Shown: piece by piece, positions 19,462 through 35,619 of the stretch
Layout of the letters: the number at the start of each line of letters is the position of its first letter
Position numbering within the stretch: the first letter of the stretch is position 1
DNA from: Nitrospirota bacterium
GTDB taxonomy: Bacteria; Nitrospirota; Thermodesulfovibrionia; UBA6902
Direction of reading: 5' to 3'
Assembly: GCA_003354025.1 (NCBI GenBank)
Contig: PIVU01000003.1
Location: 1 to 51,618 of the forward strand
DNA: 51,618 nt
Position numbers and translations under genes: made by a program
The notes under the pieces: model-generated
What the model was told of the DNA's origin: nothing
What the model saw: only the letters and a program-made list of their open reading frames with translations
Databases searched by the model: none

Positions 19462-19726
19462 TAATAAATACCTCGTCTCACTATATTAACTACGACATTC
19501 ATTAAGCAAAATAAGTGCCTGACATTAACCTCTTGTTTTTATAGGTTACTATTATTATTTATTAGCTGTTTATTGTCAAAGGTTCCGACAAAGAGTAAGA
19601 GTATCCGACAAATAATGTTCAGGGATAATAACCGCTCCAAGTATTCCCTAAGAGTGGACTGCCCCGTTTACTTTAAATAAATAAAGCCGTTACAGGGCAG
19701 CCCCTTCATATATAACACTATCTGAC

Positions 19727-20044
19727 TTAGTTCACAACGATTTTACCCTTAATTTTCTCAAAAGTCTTCTTTGCAATCCCCTCCACTTTCCTAAGGTCGT
19801 TAATGTCGCTAAAATTACCGTTATTGTTTCTATAGTTAATGATCGCCTCTGCCTTCTTCTTTCCAATACCCGAAAGTATTGTGAGTTCCTTAACTGTGGC
19901 AGTATTAATATTGATTGAAGTGTCCACGACTTGACTGTTTGATTCGGTGTGCTTATTCTCTACTGCCACTGACGTCGACACAAATATGCCGGCCATCATA
20001 AAAACTGCAATGATAATGCACATTCTTGATAATACTTTTTTCAT
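19727..20044 (-). CDS. comEA: ComEA-like helix-hairpin-helix DNA-binding protein with signal peptide
   Basis: INTATVKELTILSGIGKKKAEAIINYRNNNGNFSDINDLRKVEGI is the ComEA HhH signature. AGGAGG lies upstream of the ATG. Confidence 0.8.
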   Translation of the reverse strand: MKKVLSRMCIIIAVFMMAGIFVSTSVAVENKHTESNSQVVDTSININTATVKELTILSGIGKKKAEAIINYRNNNGNFSDINDLRKVEGIAKKTFEKIKGKIVVN

Positions 20045-20475
20045 AACATCCTCCTGGTTTTAAAGATTAGTAATCCATTTGAAATTTACAGCTCTGAAGT
20101 CATCACCTCCTTTCTGATATTTCAGGAAAACATCGGACAAGACAAGCAAATGCATAGCAGTATCGGGCAAGGTTTCACAGCATAAAAATGTTCAACCGGT
20201 GCCAAATCCACACAGATCATTCTTGTTTCCGTCAGATAAACTCTAAACGGAAAATGGTTGCATTTGAAAATTACGCGGCTTGTCAGCCCTGTCCCCAACA
20301 GATGCTAAAGTATATATAAAAGAACGCAGAATGTCCAGCAAATCTCCATGATTTAAGTTCATTGAATTAGATGGAACATATATAGAGATTCAGCCCATTT
20401 CTCGTCGAAAAATGCATTGCAACTAACCCTCCGATATTGCATCGTTTATCATCCATCCTGTATCATGTTCTAATC

Positions 20476-21750
20476 ATGAATGAACAGGTCGTAATTACAG
20501 GAGCAGGAATGGTAAACGCTCTCGGCAGAAGTTTACCTGCATCGTGGGACAAACTGGCTTCGGGGAAATGCGGTATCCGTTCCATAGAAAGCTTTAACGC
20601 AAAGGGCCTTAATTGCACTGCAGCAGCAGAGGTAAATGACCTGAACGCTGAAGAGTTAAACGTACATCCGAGAGATTCTCGAATCATGGACAAGCATGCC
20701 TACATGCTGCTTAAAGCATCGCGCGAATCTTTCAGTCATGCAGGACTTGATAAAGCATCTGTAGACCCGAATAATATCGGTTATTTCGCATCTATGGGGA
20801 TGGTAGACTACAACCTGGAAGATCTTCTACCGTCAGTGCTAAAGTCACTTGATGATAAGGGGAACCTGGATTACGACAAATTCTATTCCGGTGCATACCA
20901 GGAGATTCATCCTCTATGGCCTCTGTCAATGCTAAATAACATAAATTTCTGCCAGGTAGCCATTGACCTTGGTATCAGGGGAGAGAATACAACATTCGCA
21001 CCCCATTCCGATTCGGCTATACATTCAATAATTGAAGCATACAATGCAGTTCTAGAGAAACAAGCTGAAGTTATTCTGGCCGGAGGAGTCAGTGAAAAAG
21101 TATCTCCCTCCAGCCTGGCACGTGCTTCAATGGCCGGGATTCTAAACAGTAATGACATATCATGCCGGCCTTTTGGTAAAAACAGCACAGGAACAATGCT
21201 GGGAGAAGGATGCGGCATAATAACGATAGAACTGCTTTCACATGCAATAGCCAGACAAGCGCCATGCCTTGCCAGAATATCCGGTTACGGCTCCTCTTTT
21301 GGATCGTCAGACATCAGCAATTCCGCTACTTCAGCAGCAATATCACTTTCAATGGAAACAGCGCTTGAAAAAGCAGAGCTTAAGCCCGGGGATATAGACC
21401 TTATCATCGCCCACGGCGACGGGGCCCCGGAAGGGGATGCAAATGAAGCTGAAGCTATTCATAATACCTTCGCTGGTTGCCTGAATACCTTACATGTGTA
21501 TTCCTCAAAAGCCGCCCTTGGGCATCTATTGTCCGGCGCATCCGCAGTAGACGTAGTTATCGGAACTAATATACTGATAAATGGTATAATTCCAGCGATT
21601 TTCGATTCAGGGCCGCTTGAAGATAATATTGCATTAAATCTTGTCAGAGGGGACCCTCTTAAAGCCGACCCGGCACGGATAATGATTAATTCCCGGAGCT
21701 ATGAAGGACAGTGCGCTTCGCTGATAATTGAAAAGTGGATTGACGAATGA
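20476..21750 (+). CDS. Ketosynthase-family protein with active-site Cys replaced by Ser (CLF-like or decarboxylating KS)
   Basis: VVITGAGMVNALG N-terminus. Aligned on the AGG anchor against the two neighbouring KS genes, the catalytic Cys position is Ser191 of the long ORF (TCC at 21007-21009; context FAPHSDSAIHS). Both His motifs are kept (IIAHGDGAPEGD, SSKAALGHLLSGAS). Start set at the ATG at 20476 (MNEQVV). Confidence 0.75.
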   Translation: MNEQVVITGAGMVNALGRSLPASWDKLASGKCGIRSIESFNAKGLNCTAAAEVNDLNAEELNVHPRDSRIMDKHAYMLLKASRESFSHAGLDKASVDPNNIGYFASMGMVDYNLEDLLPSVLKSLDDKGNLDYDKFYSGAYQEIHPLWPLSMLNNINFCQVAIDLGIRGENTTFAPHSDSAIHSIIEAYNAVLEKQAEVILAGGVSEKVSPSSLARASMAGILNSNDISCRPFGKNSTGTMLGEGCGIITIELLSHAIARQAPCLARISGYGSSFGSSDISNSATSAAISLSMETALEKAELKPGDIDLIIAHGDGAPEGDANEAEAIHNTFAGCLNTLHVYSSKAALGHLLSGASAVDVVIGTNILINGIIPAIFDSGPLEDNIALNLVRGDPLKADPARIMINSRSYEGQCASLIIEKWIDE

Positions 21751-21799
21751 AAATAGTTATTCAACATATCTCTCGTCATTAATTTGTAATTGTTTTATT

Positions 21800-22255
21800 A
21801 TGCGTTTTCTATACTACGATACAGTCGATAAAATCGAAAAAGGAAAAACAATTGTGGGAGCAAAGACCTTCACGTTATCTGAGGAGTTCTTTAAAAAGCA
21901 CTTTCGCAAACAAGCTCTCGTCCCAGGTATTATTTATATTGAAGCAATGGCACAGCTCCTGGGCTGGCTTGTCATATACACCCATGATTTCAAACTCTCT
22001 GCAGTCATGTCTCTGGTTGAAGACGTAGACATTGCCCCTGACCTGAGGCCTGGTTTTAAAGCGGAAATTCATGGAGAAATAATATCAACATCACGCAGAG
22101 ACTCCCTGGGTAAAGCATGGATAACAGTGGACGGGAAAACCATCGCTTCCGTAAACCGGATCATTTACAGTCACGTTCACAAAGTCAATTCTCAGGACCT
22201 TATGAATCTCTTTTACTATTACAGCGGGATTAAGGCTGATCTCAATGAGCAGTAA
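21800..22255 (+). CDS. FabZ/FabA-like hot-dog fold dehydratase
   Basis: EEFFKKHFRKQALVPGIIYIEAMAQLLG parallels the housekeeping FabZ motif [25 protein letters not shown] in this same window. Start set at the ATG at 21800 (MRFLYYD). The stop overlaps the next KS start. Confidence 0.75.
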   Translation: MRFLYYDTVDKIEKGKTIVGAKTFTLSEEFFKKHFRKQALVPGIIYIEAMAQLLGWLVIYTHDFKLSAVMSLVEDVDIAPDLRPGFKAEIHGEIISTSRRDSLGKAWITVDGKTIASVNRIIYSHVHKVNSQDLMNLFYYYSGIKADLNEQ

Positions 22256-23531
22256 GCACAGAGTTGTTATCACAGGACTAGGCATGGCAACGTCACTGGG
22301 CACCACTGTAGATGAAAACTGGAGTAAAGCCCTTGAAGGTCAATCGGGCATTAAAGAGCTTTCACTGCCGAACACAGAGAAGTCACCTGTCAGGGCGGTT
22401 GGAAGTGTTGCCCTAAGGGACTGGCAAAAGATCCAGGCAGCGTTCCCTGGAGAAGCTGCTCAGGAAGGTGAGCGGAGAACCCTCTTTGCTTTATGGTCAG
22501 CAATGTCAGCATTAGACGATGCCGGTTTAACAAAATATGACGGCCCAAAAGACCGTTTTGGTGTCGTGCTTGCAGCAGGCCTCGGCATAAACAGACTGGA
22601 AGATATTCACCGATGGACCAACCAAAACAAAGAGTTCGACCTCGAGAAATTCGGCAAAGAGTATAAAGACATACACTCTGAATCCCTGATGAAAAACAAC
22701 GCCCACAGGCCCGCCGCACTTATAGCAAAAAAATACGGATTGAATGGATACAACTCCACCATAACAACAGCGTGCGCATCGGCTACACAGGCCATCGGCA
22801 CTGCTTACCGTTCGATTTATCGGGGAGATTCGGACATGATCGTTTCAGGAGGAGCAGACTCCATGATCAACCCTGTGGGCCTCATATTTTTTGTTCTGCT
22901 CAGTGCGGCTGCCGTATCAAAGGACAATCCATCGGAAATCTGCAGGCCCTTTGACAGGAAAAGATCTGGCCTTGTTATGGGTGAAGGATCAGGTATGGTT
23001 GTGCTGGAAGAAGAATCTCACGCACTGAAGAGGGGTGCAAAAATATACGCTGAAGTATCAGGATACGCTTCAACTATGGACGCTTACAAAGTAACGGCGC
23101 CTCATCCAAAAGGTATCGGCGCCGAACGTGCCATGATAAACGCCCTTAAAGATGCGGACATGGCCCCTGATGAAATAGATTATATTAATGCCCACGGCAC
23201 TAGTACAAAACTGAATGATTCAGCGGAAACACTGGCAATAAAAAATGTGTTTAAAGATCATGCCCGTAATTTATCAGTAACCTCAAGCAAAGCTCTCATA
23301 GGACATTTACTGGCAGCTTCCGGAGGGCCTGAGTTTGTCTTTACGGCATTGACTGTTAACAGGGACGAAATTCACCCGACTATTAATCAGCATAATCCTG
23401 ATCCGAAGTGCGATCTTGATTATGTTCCCAATATCAAAAAATCTGCTGCCGTGAGGGCCGCAATTTCAAATTCATTCGGTTTTGGTGGACAGAACGGGTC
23501 AATTGTTGTCAAAAAATATGGATCGAGTTAG
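22245..23531 (+). CDS. Beta-ketoacyl-ACP synthase, FabF-like (intact triad)
   Basis: TTACASATQAIG (Cys), INAHGTSTKLND, SSKALIGHLLAASG and NSFGFGGQNG. Confidence 0.88.
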   Translation: MSSKHRVVITGLGMATSLGTTVDENWSKALEGQSGIKELSLPNTEKSPVRAVGSVALRDWQKIQAAFPGEAAQEGERRTLFALWSAMSALDDAGLTKYDGPKDRFGVVLAAGLGINRLEDIHRWTNQNKEFDLEKFGKEYKDIHSESLMKNNAHRPAALIAKKYGLNGYNSTITTACASATQAIGTAYRSIYRGDSDMIVSGGADSMINPVGLIFFVLLSAAAVSKDNPSEICRPFDRKRSGLVMGEGSGMVVLEEESHALKRGAKIYAEVSGYASTMDAYKVTAPHPKGIGAERAMINALKDADMAPDEIDYINAHGTSTKLNDSAETLAIKNVFKDHARNLSVTSSKALIGHLLAASGGPEFVFTALTVNRDEIHPTINQHNPDPKCDLDYVPNIKKSAAVRAAISNSFGFGGQNGSIVVKKYGSS

Positions 23532-23576
23532 TGAGTTAAAAAACTACTGATTATATGTTACTGAAGGGATAAGAAT

Positions 23577-24329
23577 ATGAAAATAGATTTAACAGGCAAA
23601 GTAGCACTTGTCACAGGGGCATCAAGGGGGATAGGACGGGCCACGAGCATCATGCTGGCCAAGGCAGGAGCTTCCGTAATTATTAATTACGTCAAGTCTG
23701 CTGAAAAAGCTGAGGAAGTAAAAAACGAGATCTCCGGTACCGGTGGTACGGCAGATATTTTTCAGGCCGATGTCTCTAAGCCCGAAGATGTAAAAGCCCT
23801 ATTCGAATTTATAACAGGAAAATATAACAGGCTGGATATACTTGTAAACAATGCCGGTGTTATAAAGGACAACCTTCTTATTGCAATGAAACTCAAGGAT
23901 TGGGACAGGGTTATTGATACAAATTTAAAGGGTGCATTTCTTTGTTCACAGCAGGCTGCGGAAATTATGATGGCAAATCACTCAGGGAAAATCATTAATG
24001 TTTCATCAATAGGCGCTATCAGGGGAGGACGGGGTCAAACCAACTATTCATCTGCAAAAGGCGGTCTCATGTCATTCACAAAAGCATGCGCTGTAGAACT
24101 TGCATCAAAGGGGATTCAGGCAAACGCAGTACTGCCGGGCATGATCGTAACCGACATGAGTGTCCGGGCTAGAAAAAGGGCCGGAGATAAAATACTTGAA
24201 CGAATCCCTGCAGAAAAGTTCGGCGAACCCGATGACATAGCCGCCATGATCGTATTCCTGGCTTCGAAACATGCAGATTATATTACCGGGCAGACCATAT
24301 CCATCGACGGAGGGATGGGGATTTCGTAA
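23577..24329 (+). CDS. fabG: 3-oxoacyl-ACP reductase (FabG-type SDR)
   Basis: VTGASRGIGRA, NNAGV, SSIGAIRGGRGQTNYSSAKGG (S...YxxxK) and ITGQTISIDGG. The symbol denotes the family. This may be a pathway-specific paralogue. Confidence 0.85.
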   Translation: MKIDLTGKVALVTGASRGIGRATSIMLAKAGASVIINYVKSAEKAEEVKNEISGTGGTADIFQADVSKPEDVKALFEFITGKYNRLDILVNNAGVIKDNLLIAMKLKDWDRVIDTNLKGAFLCSQQAAEIMMANHSGKIINVSSIGAIRGGRGQTNYSSAKGGLMSFTKACAVELASKGIQANAVLPGMIVTDMSVRARKRAGDKILERIPAEKFGEPDDIAAMIVFLASKHADYITGQTISIDGGMGIS

Positions 24330-25077: not shown

Positions 25078-25243
25078 TTGACCTGTTTTGATCGTTTCTT
25101 CACTATATTATACTTTGGCTGGGAATAAAGATGTTTTTGCTACAATTATTACTATTCCACCTTATGCTAAAGGGACCTGCCTAGCTCCGGAAGTCTCTCT
25201 TTACTTGATTTTATTTTTTGCTCTATGGTATTTTTATAAGCCC

Positions 25244-27622
25244 ATGCATAGCAAATCCCGTTTATATTCAGCACTGCTTATTTTATCAATTGCAACTCTG
25301 ACATTGGAAGTGCTCCAGCTTCGTATCTTTGCATACAGCCTGTTGCGGTCTCTGGCACATGTTGTGGTCAGCATCGTTCTTATGGGAATTGGTATAGGGA
25401 GTATAAGTATTGCTCTTTCCTCCAAAATCAACCGAATCAAAGAAGAAACGCTGCTAACCTATTTATTCATGGGCTTTTCTATAAGCATAATGGTTACTCA
25501 TTTGATATTCAGCCATTATTTTCAATGGATTAACCAGGGATATAATTTCCCCAGATTATGGCTTTTCTCCATAATTTTCAGCGTACCATATATCTTTTTC
25601 GGCGCAATACTTACATATGTTTTCAAAAAATATGTACAGGATGTACCGAAACTCTACTCATTAAACCTGATCGGTTCAGGGTTAGGCTGTATAATACCGC
25701 TGATTGCATTACGTCCCCTTGGGGCAGAAAATTTAATCGTGCTGGTAGCTTTTCTGGGGGCGCTGTGCTCTCTGCTTTATTTTCGTGACATACCAAAAAA
25801 ACTTGGCCTGACTGCCGCAATTTTTACTATATTAATATTATTCAGCTTTCCATTCTCCGGCGATCTTTTTGATTTTAAATCAAAAGCCAATGGAGGCCTC
25901 GCAAAGATGAAAAATGCCACCAAAGTAAAAAGGGAATTTTCTAAATGGGATCCCCTGGGTAAAATCGAGGTTTATTCCTTTAATGATGATTACTCATATA
26001 TGTACATGCCGGAAGCCGTGCCTATCAAGGCAATGTTCCAGGACGGGGATGCAGGCTCCATGCTTGTTAATATTCGTAAAGACAAATATGATTATACAAA
26101 TTTCTTTGACGGCAGCATATTCAGTCTTGTTTATCAACTTCGCAACAACTCGGAAACACTGGCAATCGGACTGGGAGGTGGCCATGATATAATGAGGGCT
26201 TCCTACTTTAAAAGCAGCAGGGTAACCGGAGTGGAAATAAACAGCACTACCGTCAAACTTGTTAAAGAATCCTTCAAAGACTTCCTGGGAGACCCCTACG
26301 GCAAAGAGAATGTATCTATTGTTAATATGGACGGCAGATATTTTGTCAAAGACAATAAGAAAAATTACGACATTATACAGATAGCCGGCGCTGACACCGA
26401 CACTTCCAATTTGACTTCCGGCGCCCTTTCCGTTTCTGAAAACTACCTCTATACCTCTGAGGCATTCAAAGACTATTTAAAGTCTTTAAAGCCTGACGGT
26501 ATTCTTTCCCTGATACGTTTCGGCCCAAGAGAACCTATGATCATTATATCTACGGCCCTTAAGGCAATGAATGAAATGGGAATCGTTAATCCATACAATA
26601 ATTTCATAGTAGTAAAACAAGCTATTAACGTCAATGTTTTGATGAAAAAAGTGCCTTTCAGTATTGATGAGATCAATATCGTAAGAAAGTTTGCGGACCG
26701 AGTGACAATAAGCTCTCAAAACCTCAGACTTCCTGTAAATGATGTAATAGGGTATGAGGCAATTAGTGACTCAGAGATCATGTACCTGCCCCTTCCCGGC
26801 TGGAATGCCCAGAATTCATTTACGGAAATCATGAATTCAGCCAGGTCGAATGAGATATCAAAATACGTGGCCGGCTTCCCTCAAAATATCGGGCCCCTGA
26901 CAGATAATATGCCCTTCTTTTTCCAATATGAGAAGCCAGAAAATATTTTCAAGTACAAGAACTCTGTTATTTATAATTTATTCGTATCCATTGTACAAAT
27001 CTTAATATTCTCAGTATTGCTAATCTTTTTGCCTGTCTATATTTTAAAAAGAAAACATATGAATATGAGGTACAACTTTAATTATATTATTTATTTTTTC
27101 AGCATAGGCATAGGATTTATGCTCATAGAAATCGGTTTAATTCAAAAAGCAGTTCTATTCCTTGGTCATCCGACTTACTCTTTCATTGCAGTAGTATTTT
27201 CAATACTATTGTTTTCGGGGCTTGGAAGTCTTTTTTCAGCATATTTCAACAAGAACATTTTCAAACTTGTAGTTATTAGTTTAAGCGCCGTAATCATTTT
27301 AACTCTTCTTTACCTGTTTTACATGGATGATTTACTTAATGCCATTCTGCCCGAAAACATGTATTTAAGAATGGTCATTATAGGCCTGTTTTTATCGCCT
27401 ATAGGGTTTGCTATGGGCATACCATTACCCAAAGGTATACAGATGGTCAGTGCAAAAGACAGCAATTTTATACCTGTAGCCATGGCTGTGAATAGTGTCG
27501 CATCGGTATTAGCCGCAGCGTCATCCCTGCCGTTTGCCATGTTGTATGGCTTTACCGCAATATTTCTAACTGCGATAACAGCATATATGACTGGTTTAAT
27601 AACCATCGCAATCAAAAGATAA
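25244..27622 (+). CDS. Polytopic membrane protein with a central spermidine-synthase-like (class I SAM/dcSAM-binding) domain
   Basis: N-terminal multi-TM region (LLILSIATLTLEVLQLRIF...). Central LAIGLGGGHDIMRA...VTGVEINSTTV...NMDGRYFV...YDIIQIAGADT...LYTSEAFKDYLKSLKPDGILSL matches the SpeE fold motifs. Additional C-terminal TM helices follow. The long ORF starts at 25088, only 10 nt from the divergent GT2, so I prefer the ATG at 25244. Confidence 0.7.
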   Translation: MHSKSRLYSALLILSIATLTLEVLQLRIFAYSLLRSLAHVVVSIVLMGIGIGSISIALSSKINRIKEETLLTYLFMGFSISIMVTHLIFSHYFQWINQGYNFPRLWLFSIIFSVPYIFFGAILTYVFKKYVQDVPKLYSLNLIGSGLGCIIPLIALRPLGAENLIVLVAFLGALCSLLYFRDIPKKLGLTAAIFTILILFSFPFSGDLFDFKSKANGGLAKMKNATKVKREFSKWDPLGKIEVYSFNDDYSYMYMPEAVPIKAMFQDGDAGSMLVNIRKDKYDYTNFFDGSIFSLVYQLRNNSETLAIGLGGGHDIMRASYFKSSRVTGVEINSTTVKLVKESFKDFLGDPYGKENVSIVNMDGRYFVKDNKKNYDIIQIAGADTDTSNLTSGALSVSENYLYTSEAFKDYLKSLKPDGILSLIRFGPREPMIIISTALKAMNEMGIVNPYNNFIVVKQAINVNVLMKKVPFSIDEINIVRKFADRVTISSQNLRLPVNDVIGYEAISDSEIMYLPLPGWNAQNSFTEIMNSARSNEISKYVAGFPQNIGPLTDNMPFFFQYEKPENIFKYKNSVIYNLFVSIVQILIFSVLLIFLPVYILKRKHMNMRYNFNYIIYFFSIGIGFMLIEIGLIQKAVLFLGHPTYSFIAVVFSILLFSGLGSLFSAYFNKNIFKLVVISLSAVIILTLLYLFYMDDLLNAILPENMYLRMVIIGLFLSPIGFAMGIPLPKGIQMVSAKDSNFIPVAMAVNSVASVLAAASSLPFAMLYGFTAIFLTAITAYMTGLITIAIKR

Positions 27623-28583: not shown

Positions 28584-29573
28584 TTAGTGACTGTATGCAA
28601 GAGCAACTGCATATGTTTCACCAAGCGCAGCATTTTTAGTATGCTTCAAACCAAAAAAGTCTGATATGTCCGTATTATAAGAAAATACCAGCTGCAGCCC
28701 TGGCTTTAATGTAAAAGCCAGGTCTACCCCCCCACTAAAGGTATCCTGCTCAAGGGCAAGAGAATCTTTAATAACTACCGGTTTACCATGAGCTTTTGAT
28801 ACGCTGCCCTGGTCATAGAATAACTGCGCCATTACGTCTGAAACTTCTGCATTACCGACTGAATCAGAATAGGCAAACTGTCCCCTGATCGATAACCATG
28901 GAGTTGCATTGTAACCGCCACTCAATGCAACTTTAAACTGATCAGACGGTTTAAACGTAGCATCGTTGGGAAGCTGTTCATTTTCAAACCGGTAAACATA
29001 TGAAATATCAAGTACTGAGTACCCCCAGTTGAATCCCCTACCAAATTTTAGTTTTGAAGTTAAATCATACTGTCCCTCTCCAAGGGGTTGATGCGTTGCA
29101 GGATTTGCATAGTCATATGCTTCAGGAATTTTCACACCAAATTCAATTGACGATAACACTCCCGTGCCGGCAATATTATCAATCAATTTATGCCTAAGTC
29201 CAACATTTATGTCACCAACTCCGCTGGGACCCCTTTTATCGGTTTCTATCATTACATCATGAGACTTTACCCAGTTCCATGGGATTGAAAAAATACCAGT
29301 AATCTTATCTGTAATACCATACTCAAGATAGTAGGTTACTGCAGTGCTTGTAAATTCTTCCGAGTCAACCCTGTGGACTTCAGTATCCAAACCCACTATA
29401 GCACCAGCGCTATCATGCTGCAAAGTAGTAAATTTCTGAGTGGTCTGATAATGACTTAAACTAAGCTGATTATAAGAATGCCCTTTTGCCTGGGTCCATG
29501 CTGCCATAGCAGCATCTGTTATAAATAAACATACTGCTGTTAATAACAACGATACGACTACTCCTTTTTTCAT
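28584..29573 (-). CDS. Outer-membrane beta-barrel protein (MetA/phenol-degradation-like transporter type)
   Basis: Signal peptide ...FITDAAMA-AW. Alternating hydrophobic/aromatic beta-strand pattern throughout. AAGGAG 8 nt upstream of the ATG at 29573 (MKKGVV). Confidence 0.65.
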   Translation of the reverse strand: MKKGVVVSLLLTAVCLFITDAAMAAWTQAKGHSYNQLSLSHYQTTQKFTTLQHDSAGAIVGLDTEVHRVDSEEFTSTAVTYYLEYGITDKITGIFSIPWNWVKSHDVMIETDKRGPSGVGDINVGLRHKLIDNIAGTGVLSSIEFGVKIPEAYDYANPATHQPLGEGQYDLTSKLKFGRGFNWGYSVLDISYVYRFENEQLPNDATFKPSDQFKVALSGGYNATPWLSIRGQFAYSDSVGNAEVSDVMAQLFYDQGSVSKAHGKPVVIKDSLALEQDTFSGGVDLAFTLKPGLQLVFSYNTDISDFFGLKHTKNAALGETYAVALAYSH

Positions 29574-29621
29574 AAATAACACTCCTTTTAATAGAATTTA
29601 CTTAAACATCGTTTTTATATT

Positions 29622-31142: not shown

Positions 31143-31377
31143 TGAAATGTCCTTTAATTAAAAAAATAGAGTCAAGAGAAAAAATCCGTGAAAAAGTATA
31201 ACACACTCTTTATTATAGGGGCAATTAGAAATCCTTATACAACGATTATCACCATAATACGCAACCTGAACATGTGTATATTCACTGATTTGGCATCAAA
31301 ACAATAAACAGAGTTTATCGAAGCCTGAGCATTTAATTATTTCTTTTAATTTCAATAATAATTGGAAATATAGTAAA

Positions 31378-31722
31378 ATGGATACAATGAGTCAGCAAAT
31401 TGATAATTCTGATCCCAACTCTCCGTTAAACTGGACATTAACTCTGAAAGCTCTTGCTGATGAGAATCGGCTCCAGATAATCCATGAACTTCTTAAGCAG
31501 GAAGCTTCCGTACAGGACCTGTCAAACACCTTGAACATTAAGATGTATAACATATCAAAACATTTGAAAATACTGGAAAATGGGGGGCTGGTAAAGAAGA
31601 GGAAAGAAGGCGTCCATAGAATATATCATATTACAGACACCTTCATGTCCCGCCTTTCTGAGGACAATCAAGTGCTTGATTTAGGGTGCTGCAAGTTCAT
31701 GTTCGGCAGTTCATCCAAATAG
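31378..31722 (+). CDS. ArsR/SmtB-family winged-helix transcriptional regulator
   Basis: LKALADENRLQIIHELLKQEASVQDLSNTLNIKMYNISKHLKILENGGLVKKRKEG is a typical ArsR HTH. Confidence 0.85.
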   Translation: MDTMSQQIDNSDPNSPLNWTLTLKALADENRLQIIHELLKQEASVQDLSNTLNIKMYNISKHLKILENGGLVKKRKEGVHRIYHITDTFMSRLSEDNQVLDLGCCKFMFGSSSK

Positions 31723-31827
31723 TAGCTTACTGTCTGACAGGAACCATCCTTAATACTCAACTATCATACCCTTCAAGTAAATCTATAGCCCTGGTAGCAC
31801 AATTAACACAACTCTGGATTTAAAAAG

Positions 31828-32178
31828 CTACACTTCTTCTAGTGGCAAATCGCTCGCTGTCCATTCATCAATACCGCCCTCATAAACCTTTACATTAGGT
31901 ATATTGAGAAGCTTTAACCCCAGCGCAACTTTTTTAGAGGCAACACAATCCTTATGTTTACAATATATTATTATCTCATCGAAAGACATTAATTCATTTC
32001 GCCTGTTAATAACTTCCTTATAAGGAATCGTAGTAGCACCCTTTATCCTGAATCTGTTCCCATCATAGGTACCAATAGTATCAACAAGAACAAAATTAGC
32101 ATCACTATTAATTTTGTCTAAAAGTTCCTTTTTATTTATGCATTCCAATGAATAGTTTAAATCGATCTTATATGACAT
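31828..32178 (-). CDS. Single-domain rhodanese-like sulfurtransferase
   Basis: 116 aa. FVLVDT...GATTIPY...IIIYCKHKDCVASKKVA...VKVYEGGIDEW is a rhodanese layout with the active-site Cys loop. Confidence 0.75.
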   Translation of the reverse strand: MSYKIDLNYSLECINKKELLDKINSDANFVLVDTIGTYDGNRFRIKGATTIPYKEVINRRNELMSFDEIIIYCKHKDCVASKKVALGLKLLNIPNVKVYEGGIDEWTASDLPLEEV

Positions 32179-32373
32179 TAATCACCTCATTTTTATATAA
32201 AAACTAACATGTACTCAACCTGGCTGTCAATTTAGTTTGCACAACATCCATCAATAAATAATAATATTTTAATAAGTTAAACATGCCCAAAACAGTGGTT
32301 TACTCTATTATCATTTTGCAAAACAAATAGCTCTCTGTTTATTTTGTAGCAACTGTTCAGTTAAATTAAATAT

Positions 32374-35300
32374 ATGGCTAAATCCCGAAAAAGATACGGA
32401 ATGCTGATAGACCTCAACAAGTGTGTCGGTTGTTACGCCTGTCAGGCAACATGCAAAGCTGAATACAATATTCCACTGGGATCTTTCCGCTGCCGCCTCG
32501 AAACATATACATCGGGAATTTATCCTGCTATCAGCAAGACTTTTCTACCGCGCCTTTGTAATCACTGCGACAAAGCGCCCTGCATAGAAGCATGCCAGGA
32601 AAATGCATTATACAAAAATCAGGATGGCATCGTAATGTTTAATAAAGATAATTGCAGCGGCTGCAATCAGTGTAAGGACCAATGCCCTTATGGTGCTATC
32701 GATAATAATCCATTAACGGGCATAATGGAAAAGTGTGACTTTTGCTATAGCAGCAGGGTTTCAAAAGGCATGCTGCCTGTTTGTGTTCAAAGCTGCATGG
32801 GCAACGCTATTACCTTTTGCGACATGAACGATCCCACAAGCAAAATCCATAAATCTTTAACCGATAGTACATTAAAAACAGTAAGCTCCGAAGTTGCTAC
32901 AAATCCATCTGTTTTTTATCTATACAATGGCGACATTGAGCATATACCTTTATCCCGTTATGAGAAAATTAAAATCCCTGCAACACGCCGCGTTCATGAA
33001 GCTATACCGGATAATCCTGAAAATGCATCACATTTAATAAATACTTCAGATGCCATGTGCCCTTCCGAATGTGGAATATCGGTGCTCGTTGAAAAGGGAG
33101 TTGCAAAAAAGATCTACGGCAATCCCCACTCATTGGTAAACAACGGCTCATTCTGCGCAAAAGGCGCAGCAGGTCTGCAACTCACATACTCTCCTCACCG
33201 CATCAAGACCCCAATGCTCCGGACTGGTGAACGGGGCAAAGGTGAATGGAAAGAGGTTTCATGGGAGGAGGCCGCTGATTTCATTGCAGATAAATTAATC
33301 AGCATAAAAAAGGAATACGGTCATGAGTCTGTCGTCATGGATAGCGGTGATGTAACTGACAGGGAAGCATATTACCGATTATTTCATGCATTCGGCACTC
33401 CCAACACATATAATCAGGGCAGTGTATGCGATCCAAACCGTAAGTGGGGACAGGGCATTATGCTGGGAGATGATCGACCGCTCCCTGACATTCAACGGCC
33501 TGTCCTGATAAGGGACGAAGATGGAGAATTGCAGCTCAAAAAAGACCACGATATAAAGCTTCTTATGAATATCGGAGCAAATCCGCTGACAGCAACTCGT
33601 TTCAACTATATGTCAAAAGGGATTCCCGCCGCAAGAGTGGAAAACAAGTGCCGTTATATAGTCATTGACCCTTCTCATACAAACTCCGCTGCCCATGCAG
33701 ATATCTGGCTCCCCATAATACCGGGCTCTGATGCTGCTTTTCTTGCAGCCATGCTCTACTACATAATAAAAAATGATTCTGCAGTTGATCCGACAAAAAA
33801 ATACATTGACCACGGATTTATAAACAGATATACCGAAGGCTGGGACGAATTCAGCGATTCATTCCTCTCCTTCACAAAAAAAATAGATCCATCCAATAAT
33901 CTGCATTATTTCACTCCTGAGTGGACAGAAGAAAGAACGGGCATCTCCGTTGCAGATATTAAGAGGGTCTCGCACCTGTTCGGCATTACAAAACCTGCAG
34001 CCATAGAAATCGGAATGCACGGTACAGCACACCATACAAATGGTGACGTCACGTCAATTATTATGACAGCCCTATGCCTTGCAACAGGCAATATGGACGT
34101 CCCCGGCGGACTAGTTTTTGTAGATTCACAAAAAGCTAAAAAAGGCGGCAGGACTACCGGCAGGGCATTTCTGGAAAAAACTGTTTCCAGGACTATAAAC
34201 GGCATTGATGTTACGGGCAAACTCTCAGAGCTGAATAAAGACCTGTTCGGCGATTTTCCTGCGGCATGGAAAGGGGTCCTTGTGGACCTGCCGACAAAAA
34301 TCAGGGATGGAGTTAAGCTCAAACACGGTCCATTCAAAGATCACTCTTACGCTGTAAAAGCATTTATAACCAGAGCGGGAAATCCGGTTATTACATCTGG
34401 AAGCACTCCTGACTGGATCGATGCAATTACACAAAAAGACAGCAGCGGGAACTATCTGCTCGAGCTAATGGTCTTTATTGATACACACATAACCGTATCA
34501 GGGGAATATGCTGATGTTATTCTTCCCGAAGCGGGTTTTCTTGAAAGAATGGGGACCAGCGACGTTTATACAATGAGTCCTGAAATCGCGATTAGAGACC
34601 AGGTCATAAAGCCACTTCACGAATCAAAGACTCCTTTCGAAATAATGATGACTCTGAGCCGGGCACTTATAAACAGAGGCGACACTGATATAAGAGAATC
34701 AGATTTTGCAGCATATGAGAATGAAGAAGCCTTTATTGACGAGATCCTGAGCGAAGCCCCCGGGTTCTACAATCTGGGAACTCCCCTGCCCTATCCGGAA
34801 CTGCCGGAAGGCTGTCTCATAGTCGGAACGCCCGACAATCCCGGAGCTGTATGGGGGACAAAAACAATCAGAGAGGGGGATCTGCTCACCGTTGAATGGC
34901 TCAGAAAAAACAATGGAGTTGCTGTATGGCCGGCAAGCTATTACAGGTATAAAAAGCAGGACAACTCCCCTTCAGGCCTCTATCCGTCAACATCCTCAAA
35001 AAAATTTGAATTCAGCTTTAATTATCTAAATAATATAAACAATAAGTTCAACACTGAATTCCCAACAACATTTTACTGGTCCGAGTGCAAATGGCACCCG
35101 AAAAATCCTGAATTCTCAGAGACCTTTAAGGAGTATCCGTTCCAGCTTATTACAGGCAGGGCCCATTACTCAATGACAATGACGGGAGTATGCCCCGGAC
35201 TCGCTGAGACCGAAACTGAATGCATGAAACCGCTTAATGATGATTTTAAATATACAGAGCCGAATTTAGAGGGGGGGAAAGAGGTCCACTTCAAATCCGG

Positions 35301-35619
35301 CACAATATCAATCCCTGTCCTCGCACTGAACAGGACTGACGGTGAGCAGCTTGGAATAAAAACCGGGGACATTATCGCACTCGAAAACCCTTTAAATAAG
35401 ACTCTTCAGGGTAAAGTCTATCTAACCGAAGAGGTAATGCCAGGCGTAATAAAAACCGTCTTTGGTCCCGGCGGCCAGAACGCCTCGGGTATGCAATTCA
35501 CTAATAATACGTCCCGTTACACACCCAACATAAATGAGCTTCACGACCCAAACAACATATCCCCCTACACAGGAATGCCCGGATTCGGGGACATCATGGT
35601 TAAAGTGATTAAGCCTTGA
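32374..35619 (+). CDS. Single-chain fusion: 4x[4Fe-4S] electron-transfer (PsrB/DmsB/NrfC-like) domain plus Mo/W-bis-PGD catalytic (DMSO reductase superfamily) domain
   Basis: The N-terminus has four Cys groups: CVGCYACQATC, CNHCDKAPCIEAC, CSGCNQCKDQCP and CDFC...CVQSC. From about residue 226 there is an FS0-like motif DAMCPSEC-x27-C, then a candidate Mo ligand NQGSVC(352)DPN, and a C-terminal molybdopterin-binding barrel (FQLITGR..., GDIIALENP..., VMPGVIKT). Confidence 0.85.
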   Translation: MAKSRKRYGMLIDLNKCVGCYACQATCKAEYNIPLGSFRCRLETYTSGIYPAISKTFLPRLCNHCDKAPCIEACQENALYKNQDGIVMFNKDNCSGCNQCKDQCPYGAIDNNPLTGIMEKCDFCYSSRVSKGMLPVCVQSCMGNAITFCDMNDPTSKIHKSLTDSTLKTVSSEVATNPSVFYLYNGDIEHIPLSRYEKIKIPATRRVHEAIPDNPENASHLINTSDAMCPSECGISVLVEKGVAKKIYGNPHSLVNNGSFCAKGAAGLQLTYSPHRIKTPMLRTGERGKGEWKEVSWEEAADFIADKLISIKKEYGHESVVMDSGDVTDREAYYRLFHAFGTPNTYNQGSVCDPNRKWGQGIMLGDDRPLPDIQRPVLIRDEDGELQLKKDHDIKLLMNIGANPLTATRFNYMSKGIPAARVENKCRYIVIDPSHTNSAAHADIWLPIIPGSDAAFLAAMLYYIIKNDSAVDPTKKYIDHGFINRYTEGWDEFSDSFLSFTKKIDPSNNLHYFTPEWTEERTGISVADIKRVSHLFGITKPAAIEIGMHGTAHHTNGDVTSIIMTALCLATGNMDVPGGLVFVDSQKAKKGGRTTGRAFLEKTVSRTINGIDVTGKLSELNKDLFGDFPAAWKGVLVDLPTKIRDGVKLKHGPFKDHSYAVKAFITRAGNPVITSGSTPDWIDAITQKDSSGNYLLELMVFIDTHITVSGEYADVILPEAGFLERMGTSDVYTMSPEIAIRDQVIKPLHESKTPFEIMMTLSRALINRGDTDIRESDFAAYENEEAFIDEILSEAPGFYNLGTPLPYPELPEGCLIVGTPDNPGAVWGTKTIREGDLLTVEWLRKNNGVAVWPASYYRYKKQDNSPSGLYPSTSSKKFEFSFNYLNNINNKFNTEFPTTFYWSECKWHPKNPEFSETFKEYPFQLITGRAHYSMTMTGVCPGLAETETECMKPLNDDFKYTEPNLEGGKEVHFKSGTISIPVLALNRTDGEQLGIKTGDIIALENPLNKTLQGKVYLTEEVMPGVIKTVFGPGGQNASGMQFTNNTSRYTPNINELHDPNNISPYTGMPGFGDIMVKVIKP

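What the first reader, a model, noticed from the sequence alone, without database searches (positions are those of the whole stretch)
31378..35619. ArsR / rhodanese / single-chain FeS-plus-molybdopterin oxidoreductase with no Tat signal or membrane subunit
The 1081-aa ORF fuses a complete four-cluster ferredoxin-type subunit (PsrB/DmsB/NrfC-like, residues about 1-150) to the N-terminus of a DMSO-reductase-superfamily catalytic subunit. The usual arrangement is separate A and B (and membrane C) subunits, with a Tat signal on A. Here the catalytic domain is internal, so the enzyme is predicted to be cytoplasmic, and no anchor gene is adjacent.

It is divergently paired with a single-domain rhodanese, with an ArsR-family regulator next door. 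That context recalls polysulfide, thiosulfate, tetrathionate, arsenate or selenate chemistry, for example the Sud/Psr precedent for sulfurtransferase plus Mo enzyme. The candidate Mo ligand is Cys352 (NQGSVCDPN), 91 residues after the last FS0 Cys. Substrate and physiological partner are open.
Basis: partly seen in the sequence, partly recalled or inferred. Interest (0 to 1): 0.66.

Follow-up and report, generated by a model that had tools for sequence, protein, structure and literature searches.

The report
Cytoplasmic fused iron-sulfur molybdoenzyme, function unknown
A sulfur-cycling Nitrospirota bacterium makes a normally two-subunit, exported molybdenum enzyme as one cytoplasmic protein next to a sulfur-carrier and a sensor gene; this belongs to a conserved, untested enzyme family whose substrate (sulfur or arsenic-type compounds) is still open.

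Summary
The window has an ArsR-family gene (31378-31722, +), a single-domain rhodanese (31828-32178, -) and a 1081-aa ORF (32374-35619, +). That ORF joins a complete PsrB/NrfC-type four-cluster ferredoxin domain to a Mo/W-bisPGD catalytic domain. It has no Tat signal, and no anchor or chaperone gene lies nearby.

The fusion is not an artefact. More than 110 protein clusters from independent assemblies share the continuous architecture at 60-74% identity, all from Thermodesulfovibrionia/Nitrospirota MAGs.

New findings:
- The first FS0 cysteine is replaced by a conserved Asp (D226).
- In my neighbour-joining tree the family falls outside the PhsA/PsrA and 'MOLY' references. ArrA, TtrA and SoeA were not in that tree.
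- Its sister is an uncharacterised Tat-exported B-A-chaperone enzyme.
- One subclade also fuses a polar-amino-acid-type ABC permease to the N-terminus. This fixes the enzyme on the cytoplasmic face.
- ArsR adjoins the gene in 8 of 10 loci and rhodanese in 7 of 10, including loci in other neighbourhoods.

My best guess (about 0.4) is a ferredoxin-wired cytoplasmic reductase of sulfane sulfur, such as persulfide, polysulfide or thiosulfate-type S-S bonds, delivered by the rhodanese. A metalloid or organoarsenical substrate is a serious rival (about 0.27), because relatives lie in ars gene clusters. I rate it a new variant of a known kind.

The parts
31378..31722 (+). ArsR/SmtB-family winged-helix repressor, 114 aa. 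Its only cysteines are the C-terminal vicinal pair Cys104-Cys105 (LGCCKF).
   Evidence: Pfam HTH_5 and NCBIfam NF033788 at 79.3 bits > 55. The motif LGCC(K/Q)F is invariant in 7 of 7 orthologues and there is no alpha-3 CVC site. ArsR adjoins the enzyme gene in 8 of 10 independent loci.
31828..32178 (-). Single-domain cytoplasmic rhodanese, 116 aa, with active-site loop C72-KHKD-C77 and no signal peptide.
   Evidence: PF00581 at 39.4 bits > 22.2. The best NCBIfam hit is NF041203 'rhodanese-related (seleno)protein', below its cutoff. C77 is invariant and C72 is present in 9 of 10 orthologues and paralogues. It is divergent from the enzyme gene in 7 of 10 loci, including L084 in a different neighbourhood.
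32179..32373 (.). 195-bp divergent intergenic region between the rhodanese and enzyme genes; presumed shared promoter and operator region.
   Evidence: Only weak promoter-like matches and one AT-rich palindrome were found. No conserved operator was identified.
32374..35619 (+). 1081-aa single-chain FeS plus Mo/W-bisPGD oxidoreductase.
   Evidence: AlphaFold2 gives mean pLDDT 87 and pTM 0.89 over the whole chain. The best structural matches are ArrA 6cz7_A (E 3e-42) and PsrA 2vpw_A (E 2e-38).
32374..32928 (+). PsrB/NrfC/ArrB-like four-cluster ferredoxin domain (residues 1-185), with 16 invariant Cys plus a family-specific invariant C40.
   Evidence: PDB matches ArrB 6cz7_B (E 8e-37) and PsrB 2vpw_B (E 2e-35). 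Invariance is shown.
32929..33036 (+). Poorly conserved linker (residues 186-221) that takes the place of the Tat signal and N-terminus of a separate A subunit.
   Evidence: Conservation is low in alignments A1 and A2. The 10-residue pLDDT block means are 74 (residues 201-210) and 59 (211-220).
33037..33192 (+). FS0 cluster domain (residues 222-273) with motif D226-x2-C229-x3-C233-x27-C261. The Asp codon GAT is at 33049-33051.
   Evidence: D226 aligns with the first FS0 Cys of ArrA. The position is Asp in 44 of 45 fused and 13 of 15 sister sequences, and Cys in the rest.
33199..34662 (+). Molybdopterin oxidoreductase domain (residues 276-763). It includes the Mo-ligand Cys352 (codon 33427-33429) within the motif (H/Q)GSxCDPNR(K/R)WG.
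35314..35589 (+). Molybdopterin dinucleotide-binding domain (residues 981-1072). It is preceded by a family-specific Cys pair C940/C950 next to a stretch of lower model confidence.
   Evidence: Pfam PF01568. C940 and C950 are invariant in 45 of 45 fused sequences and absent in 15 of 15 sister sequences. Residues 933-935 have pLDDT below 50.

Best explanation
Shown by the analysis:
- The ORF encodes a real, conserved, single-polypeptide cytoplasmic Mo/W-bisPGD oxidoreductase.
- The implied electron wire is: an external donor, then four [4Fe-4S] clusters in the N-terminal PsrB-like domain, then an Asp/3-Cys FS0 cluster, then a Cys352-ligated Mo (or W) bis-PGD centre.
- It belongs to a distinct clade restricted to Thermodesulfovibrionia. 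This clade most plausibly arose when adjacent B and A genes of a Tat-exported B-A-chaperone enzyme fused and the signal peptide was lost.

Inferred:
- The enzyme reductively cleaves sulfane-sulfur bonds in the cytoplasm: protein or low-molecular-weight persulfide or polysulfide, or thiosulfate-type R-S-SO3 bonds.
- The reaction would be R-S-S(H) + 2e- + 2H+ -> R-SH + H2S.
- The divergently transcribed rhodanese (Cys72, with Cys77) carries or presents the sulfane sulfur.
- The ArsR-type repressor senses the same thiophilic species through its C-terminal Cys104-Cys105 pair and derepresses the module.
- The electron donor is not encoded nearby. It is presumably reduced ferredoxin or a membrane complex.

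In effect this would be an anaerobic, molybdenum-based counterpart of persulfide-detoxifying or persulfide-respiring systems.
For: Architecture and location:
- The model has pTM 0.89.
- Permease-fused orthologues place the enzyme after TM5, two helices past the cytoplasmic EAA loop.
- Neither the enzyme nor the rhodanese has a signal peptide.

Origin:
- The sister family (46-48% identity) has a Tat signal and the gene order B-A-TorD, with B ending 12 nt before A.
- The neighbour-joining tree gives 100% support for the sister relation.

Sulfur chemistry:
- PhsA is the best-scoring characterised family by HMM (243 bits).
- PhsA is also the best annotated hit by tblastn on plasmids (184 bits).
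- PsrA is among the two best structural matches.
- Rhodanese is adjacent in 7 of 10 loci. It stays paired with the enzyme in an unrelated neighbourhood (L084) and is expanded to five tandem paralogues in L006.
- A TauE/SafE-family (sulfite-exporter family) gene lies between ArsR and rhodanese in L001 and L007/L008. From my own knowledge, ArsR plus TauE plus rhodanese is the pattern of the BigR and cst reactive-sulfur operons.
- The host lineage lives by dissimilatory sulfur metabolism (PMC5165239, PMC12998232).
- The fused family has its own invariant Cys pair C940/C950 next to a stretch of lower model confidence (residues 933-935). This could be a persulfide relay, but that is speculative.
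Against: - No biochemical data exist for this family or for its sister.
- The enzyme fails the PhsA equivalog cutoff by a wide margin and branches outside the PhsA/PsrA and MolyA references.
- ArsR-family regulators and vicinal Cys pairs fit arsenic sensing equally well. The MAs(III)-selective SpArsR uses two C-terminal Cys (PMC11868830).
- Three related branches lie in arsenic contexts.
- The ABC permease fused in some orthologues is of the polar-amino-acid type. That is not expected for inorganic sulfur species.
- Rhodanese is absent from three loci: L009, L010 and L085.
- No electron donor or partner was identified.
Confidence: 0.4

Rival explanations
1. Metalloid reductase. The enzyme reduces a pentavalent arsenical in the cytoplasm: arsenate, thio- or methyl-arsenate, or an arsenic-containing amino-acid-like compound. 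Antimony or selenium oxyanions are also possible. The ArsR senses the trivalent product or substrate through its two-Cys site. The rhodanese strips sulfur from thioarsenicals or binds the trivalent product. In some lineages an ABC importer feeds the substrate directly to the enzyme.
For: - An ArsR-family gene is the most constant neighbour (8 of 10 loci).
- Its only cysteines are a conserved C-terminal vicinal pair. The position is similar to the AfArsR type-2 site, and like the MAs(III)-selective SpArsR it lacks the third Cys (PMC11868830; weak alignment to 6j05).
- ArrA is the top match by both sequence and fold in the PDB.
- Equivalents of ArrA residues H189 and K198 are present in the family (H348 and K/R357, with residue numbering from memory).
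- The sister-family member in a Desulfitobacterium-type contig sits between arsR-arsM and arsC-arsR-acr3, all of which score above their curated cutoffs (also Dhaf_1206-1212 in PMC3306737).
- The next clade (P0124) lies between an ABC transporter, an ArsM-like methyltransferase and an ArsS radical-SAM gene, and has the same rhodanese type.
- HMA and TerC genes lie near the L006 copy. A ZraP-like gene and a heavy-metal ATPase lie near the Nitrospirota sister.
Against: - The ArrA model score is 140 against a cutoff of 1600.
- The ArrA/ArxA (R/K)GRY substrate motif aligns to DSG-DV/GDVTD here (the motif itself is recalled from memory).
- No arsC, acr3, arsB or arsM lies next to any fused-family gene in 10 loci.
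- The gene sits in a conserved core-chromosome neighbourhood rather than a resistance island.
- The rhodanese lacks the CX5R loop of rhodanese-fold arsenate reductases.
- The regulators next to the Desulfitobacterium sister also resemble TtrSR-type sulfur-oxyanion sensors (this comparison is from memory).
Confidence: 0.27
2. Reductase for an imported organosulfur amino-acid derivative, for example S-sulfocysteine or other organic thiosulfates, cystine-type polysulfides, or methionine or S-alkylcysteine sulfoxides. It would work downstream of a polar-amino-acid ABC importer, for sulfur salvage or respiration.
For: - A subclade of true positional orthologues fuses a HEQRo-type permease to the enzyme. 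A second permease, and in L007/L008 a GlnQ-like ATPase plus two more permeases, lie next to it. The best (sub-cutoff) permease hits are cystine permease and GltK.
- The related P0124 and P0129 enzymes also sit next to permeases of this type, with an SBP_bac_3 binding protein in the P0124 locus.
- P0129 lies beside nitrogenase-like genes, which recalls organosulfur salvage systems (the comparison is from memory).
- A TauE (sulfite-exporter family) gene is adjacent in L001 and L007.
Against: - The window copy and most family members have no transporter gene nearby.
- No substrate-binding protein lies in the permease-fused loci.
- All transporter assignments score below the curated cutoffs.
- Sulfoxide reduction would not need a rhodanese.
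Confidence: 0.12
3. The enzyme runs oxidatively, as a Soe-like cytoplasmic dehydrogenase for sulfite, thiosulfate, sulfide or arsenite. It would pass electrons through the ferredoxin domain to ferredoxin or a membrane complex, for example during sulfur disproportionation.
For: - Cytoplasm-facing Psr-family enzymes that act on sulfur compounds are known or proposed. SoeABC is one (from memory). The Psr-like AB pair next to a Nuo-like complex in Thermodesulfovibrio sp. N1 is another (PMC5165239).
- Some members of the lineage disproportionate sulfur (PMC12998232).
- TauE and rhodanese fit sulfite or persulfide handling.
Against: - No SoeC, NrfD or Nuo partner is adjacent in any of 10 loci.
- Low-potential four-cluster ferredoxin wires are typical of reductases fed by low-potential donors.
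- Nothing in the sequence indicates the direction of the reaction.
Confidence: 0.08
4. The fusion is an assembly, frameshift or gene-calling artefact, or the gene is a decaying pseudogene.
For: - The window's own database gene call is 994 aa.
- Two related MAG loci (L011, L013) are frameshifted.
- The window protein carries Q348 where His is nearly invariant, and a unique C149.
Against: - The ORF is uninterrupted over 3246 nt.
- More than 110 independent full-length homologues were found.
- All cofactor ligands are intact.
- The shorter calls start inside the ferredoxin domain, so they are miscalls.
Confidence: 0.01

Closest known systems
Polysulfide/thiosulfate reductase PsrABC/PhsABC (Thermus 2VPW; Salmonella PhsA; Shewanella PsrA), with the Sud/rhodanese sulfur carrier in Wolinella
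   Same: - It has a Cys-ligated Mo-bisPGD A module, a four-cluster B module and an FS0 cluster.
- PhsA is the best-scoring characterised family by HMM and BLAST.
- PsrB and PsrA are among the best PDB matches.
- A rhodanese-type sulfur carrier is encoded next to the enzyme.
   Different: - Identity is only 24-29% and the score of 243 is far below the PhsA cutoff of 694.
- It branches outside the PhsA/PsrA clade.
- B and A are one polypeptide in B-to-A order.
- There is no Tat signal and no NrfD-type quinol-oxidising anchor.
- The enzyme and the rhodanese are cytoplasmic rather than periplasmic.
- The first FS0 ligand is Asp.
Uncharacterised Tat-exported ~948-aa 'B-A-TorD' (in Firmicutes B-C-A-D) molybdoenzyme family (P0122; Desulfitobacterium hafniense DCB-2 ACL19266.1, probably the Dhaf_1206-1209 locus called putative phsABC)
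   Same: - It is the sister clade, with 100% bootstrap and 44-48% identity.
- It shares the Asp-type FS0 motif and the HGSICD-x-x-R active-site motif.
- It has the same B-before-A gene order.
   Different: - The subunits are separate.
- It has a Tat signal and a TorD-type chaperone, and in Firmicutes a NrfD anchor.
- It is found in many phyla.
- It lacks C940/C950.
- It has never been characterised. Kim et al. guessed thiosulfate reductase (PMC3306737), yet it is embedded in an ars cluster.
Respiratory arsenate reductase ArrAB (Shewanella ANA-3, 6CZ7)
   Same: - It is the best PDB match for both halves by sequence and for the catalytic part by fold.
- It has a Cys Mo ligand.
- It has counterparts of the His and Lys that flank the ligand.
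- It is a soluble AB enzyme without its own anchor.
   Different: - Fold-alignment identity is 19%.
- The score is 140 against a cutoff of 1600.
- The (R/K)GRY motif region is not conserved.
- ArrA is exported by Tat and has separate subunits.
MOLY cluster (MolyA/MolyB/TorD-like MolyC), a candidate marker of sulfur disproportionation
   Same: - It is an anchorless A plus B molybdoenzyme of the Psr/Phs neighbourhood in Desulfobacterota and Nitrospirota (PMC9676032, PMC12998232).
- Its function is also unknown.
   Different: - The MolyA seed sequences are only 24-29% identical to the window enzyme.
- They group with PhsA and not with this family.
- MolyA is predicted to be extracellular and has a chaperone.
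ActB of alternative complex III and QrcB/C (other fusions or derivatives of Psr/Arr-type A and B modules)
   Same: A and B modules are joined in one chain. ActB structures 6f0k_B and 6lod_B match the ferredoxin part.
   Different: - ActB has the opposite order (A then B).
- ActB has lost the pterin cofactor and is membrane-bound (PMC10100899).
- The window enzyme keeps all cofactor ligands.
Cytoplasmic persulfide/polysulfide reductases with rhodanese modules (Npsr, CoA-disulfide-reductase-rhodanese fusions). This is a functional analogue only, recalled from memory.
   Same: A cytoplasmic reductase is paired with a rhodanese that presents the sulfane sulfur.
   Different: Those are flavoproteins that use NAD(P)H. 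They are unrelated in sequence and cofactor.

Membership tests
Mo/W-bisPGD (DMSO reductase / MopB) superfamily, catalytic subunit | The four-domain fold with PF04879, PF00384 and PF01568 | tested here: met
   All three Pfam domains score above their cutoffs. The model has pLDDT 87, and Foldseek gives E values from 1e-29 to 1e-42 against ArrA, PsrA, Nap, Fdh and DMSO reductase structures.
Mo/W-bisPGD (DMSO reductase / MopB) superfamily, catalytic subunit | A protein ligand to the metal (Cys, Sec, Ser or Asp) at the conserved position | tested here: met
   Cys352 aligns with the ligand Cys of ArrA and PsrA. It is invariant in 60 of 60 sequences.
Mo/W-bisPGD (DMSO reductase / MopB) superfamily, catalytic subunit | Bound Mo or W bis-pyranopterin guanine dinucleotide | not testable with these tools
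   This needs metal and cofactor analysis of the protein. Cofactor biosynthesis genes are not in the window.
PsrB/DmsB/NrfC four-cluster ferredoxin subunit | Four Cys motifs (16 Cys) that bind four FeS clusters | tested here: met
   C17/20/23/27, C62/65/70/74, C94/97/100/104 and C121/124/137/141 are all invariant. The PDB matches are ArrB and PsrB at E 1e-35 to 1e-37.
Thiosulfate/polysulfide reductase PhsA/PsrA | Score at or above the curated equivalog cutoff (NF012032, 694 bits) | tested here: not met
   The score is 242.9 bits.
Thiosulfate/polysulfide reductase PhsA/PsrA | Groups with characterised PhsA/PsrA in a phylogeny | tested here: not met
   In the neighbour-joining tree (674 columns, 100 bootstraps), PhsA, PsrA and MolyA form a clade (84%) that excludes this family and its sister. 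The tree lacks Arr, Ttr, Soe and Sre references.
Thiosulfate/polysulfide reductase PhsA/PsrA | Tat-exported A subunit with a NrfD-type membrane subunit C | tested here: not met
   There is no Tat motif. There is no NrfD gene in the window or in 10 family loci.
Respiratory arsenate reductase ArrA | Score at or above the curated cutoff (NF041714, 1600 bits) | tested here: not met
   The score is 139.8 bits.
Respiratory arsenate reductase ArrA | The (R/K)GRY substrate-binding motif (motif recalled from the ArrAB structure paper) | tested here: not met
   ArrA LLRGRYSH aligns to VMDSG-DV in the window enzyme; the family consensus is DCGDVTD.
MOLY cluster (MolyABC) | Separate A and B genes with a TorD/DmsD-type chaperone, and orthology to the seed MolyA sequences | tested here: not met
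   There is no chaperone gene. Identity to the seeds is 24-29%, and the seeds cluster elsewhere.
ArsR/SmtB metalloregulators | Winged-helix HTH_5 domain with a score above the NF033788 cutoff | tested here: met
   The score is 79.3 bits against a cutoff of 55.
ArsR/SmtB metalloregulators, arsenic-sensing types | Type-1 site: the Cys-x-Cys-x2-Cys motif (Cys32/34/37 in R773 ArsR, with the core ELCVCDL) in helix alpha-3 | tested here: not met
   The corresponding stretch is QEASVQDL, with no Cys.
ArsR/SmtB metalloregulators, arsenic-sensing types | Type-2 site: C-terminal Cys95-Cys96(-Cys102) as in AfArsR, or two Cys as in the MAs(III)-selective SpArsR (PMC11868830) | tested here: inconclusive
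   A conserved vicinal Cys104-Cys105 lies about 19 residues after the wing, with no third Cys. The alignment to AfArsR 6j05 covers only residues 16-85, so equivalence of the sites is not shown.
Rhodanese sulfurtransferases | Rhodanese fold with the catalytic Cys at the start of the active-site loop | tested here: met
   PF00581 scores above its cutoff. The YC72 position is conserved in 9 of 10 sequences. Catalysis was not tested.
Rhodanese-fold arsenate reductases/phosphatases (Acr2/Cdc25) | The seven-residue C-X5-R loop | tested here: not met
   The loop is C-KHKD-C-V, with no Arg at that position.

The most novel reading that the evidence does not exclude
The fused family, its Tat-exported sister and the P0124 group may together form an unrecognised metalloid/organo-arsenical branch of the DMSO-reductase superfamily.

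On this reading:
- The window enzyme is a ferredoxin-driven cytoplasmic reductase of pentavalent (thio/methyl/amino-acid-type) arsenicals.
- It is controlled by a two-Cys, MAs(III)-type ArsR.
- In some lineages it is physically fused to the amino-acid-type ABC importer that delivers its substrate. That would be a transporter-enzyme fusion with no precedent known to me among molybdoenzymes.
Probability: 0.2. Interest if true: 0.8.

Novelty: new variant of a known kind. Interest (0 to 1): 0.58.

Why it matters
Complex iron-sulfur molybdoenzymes of the Psr/Phs/Arr type are normally periplasmic, multi-subunit respiratory enzymes. This family shows the same catalytic machinery rebuilt as one cytoplasmic chain. 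It is conserved across a whole class of subsurface sulfur-cycling bacteria. It travels with a sulfur carrier and a thiol-based sensor, and in some members it is welded to an ABC importer.

If the substrate is sulfane sulfur, this would be an anaerobic, Mo-dependent way to reduce intracellular persulfide or polysulfide. That bears on the unresolved first steps of sulfur disproportionation and on reactive-sulfur homeostasis without oxygen.

If the substrate is an arsenical, it would fill the gap of an enzyme for reducing pentavalent organo- or thio-arsenicals in anoxic, sulfidic settings.

The Asp-for-Cys FS0 ligand, with natural Cys revertants, also offers a natural experiment in tuning FeS clusters. 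Finally, the results correct database annotations such as 'tetrathionate reductase subunit B precursor' and several truncated gene calls.

Tried and rejected
1. Artefact hypothesis: rejected. Full-length homologues are abundant. The split or short versions (L011, L013, P0111/P0115/P0118/P0120 and the 994-aa P0001) are frameshifts inside the ferredoxin or catalytic domain, or starts at internal Met residues.

2. Beta-alpha fusions in Desulfobacterota: the GTDB scan listed about 40 Syntrophales and Desulfovibrionaceae loci that seemed to match residues 9-581. ORF analysis showed they are Sec-interrupted A genes followed by a separate B gene (Fdh-like, A-B order), so they are not fusions. True beta-alpha fusions do occur elsewhere (P0128, P0131, P0133, P0139, P0144), but in other clades, so the fusion arose at least three times.

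3. Identity with the MOLY cluster or PhsA: rejected by BLAST and by the tree, using the seed sequences from the supplement of PMC12998232.

4. Identity of the sister family with antimonate reductase AnrA: I could not test this. No AnrA sequence was available.

5. ArsR operator search: no convincing inverted repeat in either intergenic region, and no k-mer shared by the divergent regions. The only conserved block lies upstream of arsR/GT2, and its meaning is unknown.

6. Labelled references from plasmids: only PhsA and FdhF were useful. A full superfamily phylogeny with Arr, Arx, Ttr, Srr, Soe, Sre and Aio was not possible.

7. Literature: six searches found no description of this fused family.

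Cluster-to-cluster distances and the position of C940/C950 relative to the active site could not be measured.

Full report
**What is there.** The window region 31378-35619 holds three ORFs exactly as described:
- a 114-aa ArsR/SmtB-family regulator on the + strand;
- a 116-aa single-domain rhodanese on the - strand, 105 bp downstream and convergent with arsR;
- a 1081-aa ORF on the + strand, 195 bp away and divergent from the rhodanese.

Pfam finds Fer4_11 (56-150), Molybdop_Fe4S4 (227-273), Molybdopterin (276-763) and Molydop_binding (981-1072) in the large protein. Its N-terminal 185 residues align end to end with PsrB (2vpw_B, E 2e-35) and ArrB (6cz7_B, E 8e-37). The rest aligns with ArrA and PsrA.

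The four ferredoxin Cys motifs (16 Cys) are complete and invariant in all homologues examined. The protein begins seven residues before the first strand of PsrB. It matches TtrB, NrfC and DsrO profiles only after their signal peptides, so there is no Tat or Sec signal. The rhodanese also has no signal peptide.

Cys352 aligns with the Mo-ligand Cys of ArrA and PsrA. None of the neighbouring genes encodes a NrfD-type anchor or a TorD-type chaperone. The surroundings are core chromosome: leuS, bamA, lpxD-fabZ-lpxA-lpxI, fatty-acid synthesis genes, a GT2 glycosyltransferase, then pheA, hisC, tyrA, aroA, and further on sppA, a cysG/hemD fusion and an RNase R gene.

FS0 is not a four-Cys site. The first ligand position is Asp226, giving D-x2-C229-x3-C233-x27-C261. 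This position is Asp in 44 of 45 fused-family sequences and 13 of 15 sister-family sequences. It is Cys in the remaining three. This is what one expects of a true ligand position that tolerates Asp or Cys.

**Is the fusion real?** Yes. A search of 5.8 billion proteins returned more than 110 clusters of full-length proteins (1065-1160 aa) at 60-74% identity, from NCBI, JGI, ENA and Logan assemblies. Every source name that gives an organism points to Nitrospirota/Thermodesulfovibrionia MAGs. A GTDB species scan gave the same taxonomy.
- The linker (residues 186-221) is variable and has lower model confidence. Both flanking domains are conserved.
- The shorter database entries, including the window's own 994-aa call, start at Met residues inside the ferredoxin domain.
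- The two 'split' MAG loci are frameshifted inside domains.
- AlphaFold2 with a 60-sequence alignment gives mean pLDDT 87 and pTM 0.89 for the whole chain. The relative placement of the two modules is therefore predicted with confidence.

**Where it sits in the superfamily.** At 50% identity the whole family collapses into one cluster. Its nearest relative is a ~948-aa family at 44-48% identity (P0122) with a clear Tat signal (MQISRRLFLQ). That family is encoded as B (221 aa), then A, then a TorD-like chaperone, with the B gene ending 12 nt before A. It occurs in many phyla, including Desulfitobacterium hafniense, Desulfosporosinus, Moorella, Deferrivibrio and Rhodoferax ferrireducens, and none has been characterised.

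I built a neighbour-joining tree of catalytic domains (674 columns, 100 bootstraps). It included PhsA/PsrA and MolyA seed sequences taken from the supplement of PMC12998232.
- The fused family is monophyletic (100%).
- It is sister to the Tat family (100%).
- The P0124 group (cytoplasmic, 740-800 aa) branches next to this pair, although I did not recover bootstrap support for that node.
- PhsA/PsrA plus MolyA form a separate clade (84%).

The NCBIfam scores agree: PhsA scores best at 243 bits against a cutoff of 694, and ArrA reaches 140 against 1600. None of the nearer relatives reaches any equivalog cutoff. Foldseek ranks ArrA and PsrA first.

The most economical history is fusion of adjacent B and A genes with loss of the signal peptide. 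Other beta-alpha fusions exist (P0128, P0131, P0133, P0139, P0144), but in unrelated clades. The order is therefore rare and has arisen at least three times. About 40 Desulfobacterota loci that looked fused in the GTDB scan turned out to be Sec-interrupted Fdh-type A genes followed by B.

**Gene context.** Ten independent family loci have upstream sequence: the window, L001, L002, L003, L006, L007, L009, L010, L084 and L085.
- An ArsR gene is adjacent in eight.
- A rhodanese divergent from the enzyme gene is present in seven.
- Most of these loci share the GT2 ... pheA neighbourhood, so part of this is inherited synteny.
- In L084 the rhodanese-enzyme pair sits in a different neighbourhood.
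- In L085 the ArsR-enzyme pair does likewise. In L009 and L010 ArsR lies immediately upstream with no rhodanese between them. This argues for functional linkage of both partners.
- L006 has five tandem rhodanese paralogues, plus TerC and an HMA-domain gene.
- L001 and L007/L008 have a TauE/SafE-family gene between ArsR and rhodanese.

The ArsR orthologues have no cysteines except an invariant C-terminal LGCC(K/Q)F. The rhodaneses share a C72-x4-C77 loop, with C77 invariant.

**A striking relative.** A subclade of positional orthologues (same flanking genes, 60-63% identity) encodes a ~1360-aa protein. In it, a five-helix ABC permease of the polar-amino-acid (HEQRo) type precedes the ferredoxin domain in one continuous ORF. 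This is seen in four independent assemblies.
- The EAA loop that contacts the ATPase lies between TM3 and TM4. The enzyme, two helices later, must therefore be cytoplasmic (the topology rule is from established knowledge of type I ABC importers).
- A second permease gene sits immediately upstream.
- L007/L008 add a GlnQ-like ATPase and two more permeases. No binding protein is nearby.
- The P0124 and P0129 relatives also lie next to transporter genes of this type.

**What does it do?** Nothing here is biochemical, so the substrate is inferred.

For sulfur:
- the closest characterised families cleave S-S bonds;
- the rhodanese is tightly linked to the enzyme and sometimes multiplied;
- TauE, rhodanese and an ArsR-type regulator together resemble reactive-sulfur operons (from my own knowledge of BigR and cst systems);
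- the hosts are dissimilatory sulfur metabolisers, in which cytoplasm-facing Psr-like enzymes have already been proposed (PMC5165239).

For a metalloid:
- ArsR is the most faithful neighbour, and its two-Cys C-terminal site recalls the MAs(III)-selective SpArsR variant of the AfArsR type-2 site (PMC11868830);
- the Desulfitobacterium-type sister enzyme lies between arsR-arsM and arsC-arsR-acr3, all above their curated cutoffs, which matches Dhaf_1206-1212 in PMC3306737;
- P0124 lies between an ArsM-like methyltransferase and an ArsS radical-SAM gene, next to a cytochrome c protein that carries the same rhodanese type.

Against arsenic:
- the ArrA-type (R/K)GRY region is not conserved;
- no ars structural gene adjoins any fused-family gene;
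- the gene is part of the core chromosome.

I therefore commit to a cytoplasmic sulfane-sulfur (persulfide, polysulfide or thiosulfate-type) reductase served by the rhodanese, at a confidence of about 0.4. The rivals are a metalloid or organoarsenical reductase (0.27), an imported organosulfur amino-acid reductase (0.12) and an oxidative Soe-like role (0.08). The electron donor is unknown. The ferredoxin domain presumably accepts electrons from ferredoxin or a membrane complex.

**Verdict.** The architecture and location are established. The family is real, conserved and uncharacterised, and several features are new:
- the Asp FS0 ligand;
- the family-specific Cys pair C940/C950;
- the Tat-exported sister family with B-A gene order;
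- the ABC-permease fusions.

The anatomy is right. The Psr/Sud analogy is reasonable, but membership in Psr/Phs or Arr is not met. I rate it a new variant of a known kind, of moderate to good interest (0.58). There is a real chance of something more unusual if the arsenical or transporter-coupled reading proves correct.

Noticed in passing
L001 9995-14089; L006 9977-14077; L007 8246-12328; L012 2076-6185 (proteins P0095-P0117): Orthologues of the window enzyme carry an N-terminal five-helix ABC permease of the polar-amino-acid type in the same ORF (~1360 aa). A second permease gene lies just upstream. I know of no precedent for a transporter-molybdoenzyme fusion.
   Followed up: partly
L006 4973-8927: Five tandem rhodanese paralogues lie upstream of the enzyme gene; one lacks the first loop Cys. 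TerC, an HMA-domain gene, a histidine-phosphatase gene and an unknown 368-aa gene are in the same stretch. A TnpB (Cas12f-like) gene lies immediately downstream.
   Followed up: partly
L082 1487-14683 (Desulfitobacterium-type contig): The Tat-exported sister enzyme (B-NrfD-A-TorD) is embedded in an arsenic cluster: arsR-arsM, then a PhnD-like binding protein with a kinase and a regulator, then the enzyme genes, then arsC-arsR-acr3. It is probably the 'putative phsABC plus chaperone' Dhaf_1206-1209 of PMC3306737. Its function has not been tested.
   Followed up: partly
L079 694-10884: A cytoplasmic unfused relative (P0124, 37% identity) lies among an ABC ATPase, an ArsM-like methyltransferase, an SBP_bac_3 binding protein, a permease and an ArsS-type radical-SAM gene. 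The cluster also has a 1165-aa protein with cytochrome c domains and a C-terminal rhodanese of the same NF041203 type.
   Followed up: partly
L083 1968-11667: Another relative (P0129) sits between two ABC permeases plus a DHDPS-family gene and a NifB-like radical-SAM gene. It lies downstream of NifH-like and two NifD/K-like genes, a nitrogenase-like cluster of unknown role.
   Followed up: no
window 33415-33417 and 32818-32820: The window enzyme has Gln348 (CAG) four residues before the Mo-ligand Cys, where 43 of 45 family members and 15 of 15 sister sequences have His. It also has a unique Cys149 where 44 of 45 have Gly. These could be real variants or sequencing errors.
   Followed up: partly
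window 32491-32493, 35191-35193, 35221-35223 (C40, C940, C950): These cysteines are invariant in the cytoplasmic fused family, and C940 and C950 are absent from the periplasmic sister family. C940/C950 flank the ETETE segment just after a stretch of lower model confidence (residues 933-935 have pLDDT below 50). They might form a redox or persulfide relay.
   Followed up: partly
window 32374-35619 versus database entry P0001: The public gene call for this very gene is 994 aa. It starts at Met88 inside the ferredoxin domain, so it loses the first cluster motif and most of the second. Several homologues (986-1019 aa and 950 aa) have the same kind of truncated call.
   Followed up: yes
window about 31195-31250 (alignment A3): A conserved non-coding block, TATAACATAC ... 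GCAATTAGAAAT ... GATTAT, lies between the divergent GT2 and arsR genes in six related loci. It could be a promoter or operator for either gene. It is not palindromic.
   Followed up: partly
window 25088-27622 and 28584-29582: An 844-aa polytopic membrane protein with a spermidine-synthase-like domain and a 332-aa protein with no Pfam match (its L003 orthologue has a weak Phenol_MetA_deg hit) are conserved with the GT2 gene upstream of the module in related genomes. Their function is unknown.
   Followed up: no
window 16312-24329: Beside the lpx genes lies a cluster with three ketoacyl-synthase genes (17709-19037, 20437-21750, 22245-23531), an acyl-carrier-type protein (17185-17748) and two short-chain reductases. 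This is more than a standard fab set, so it may make a specialised lipid.
   Followed up: no
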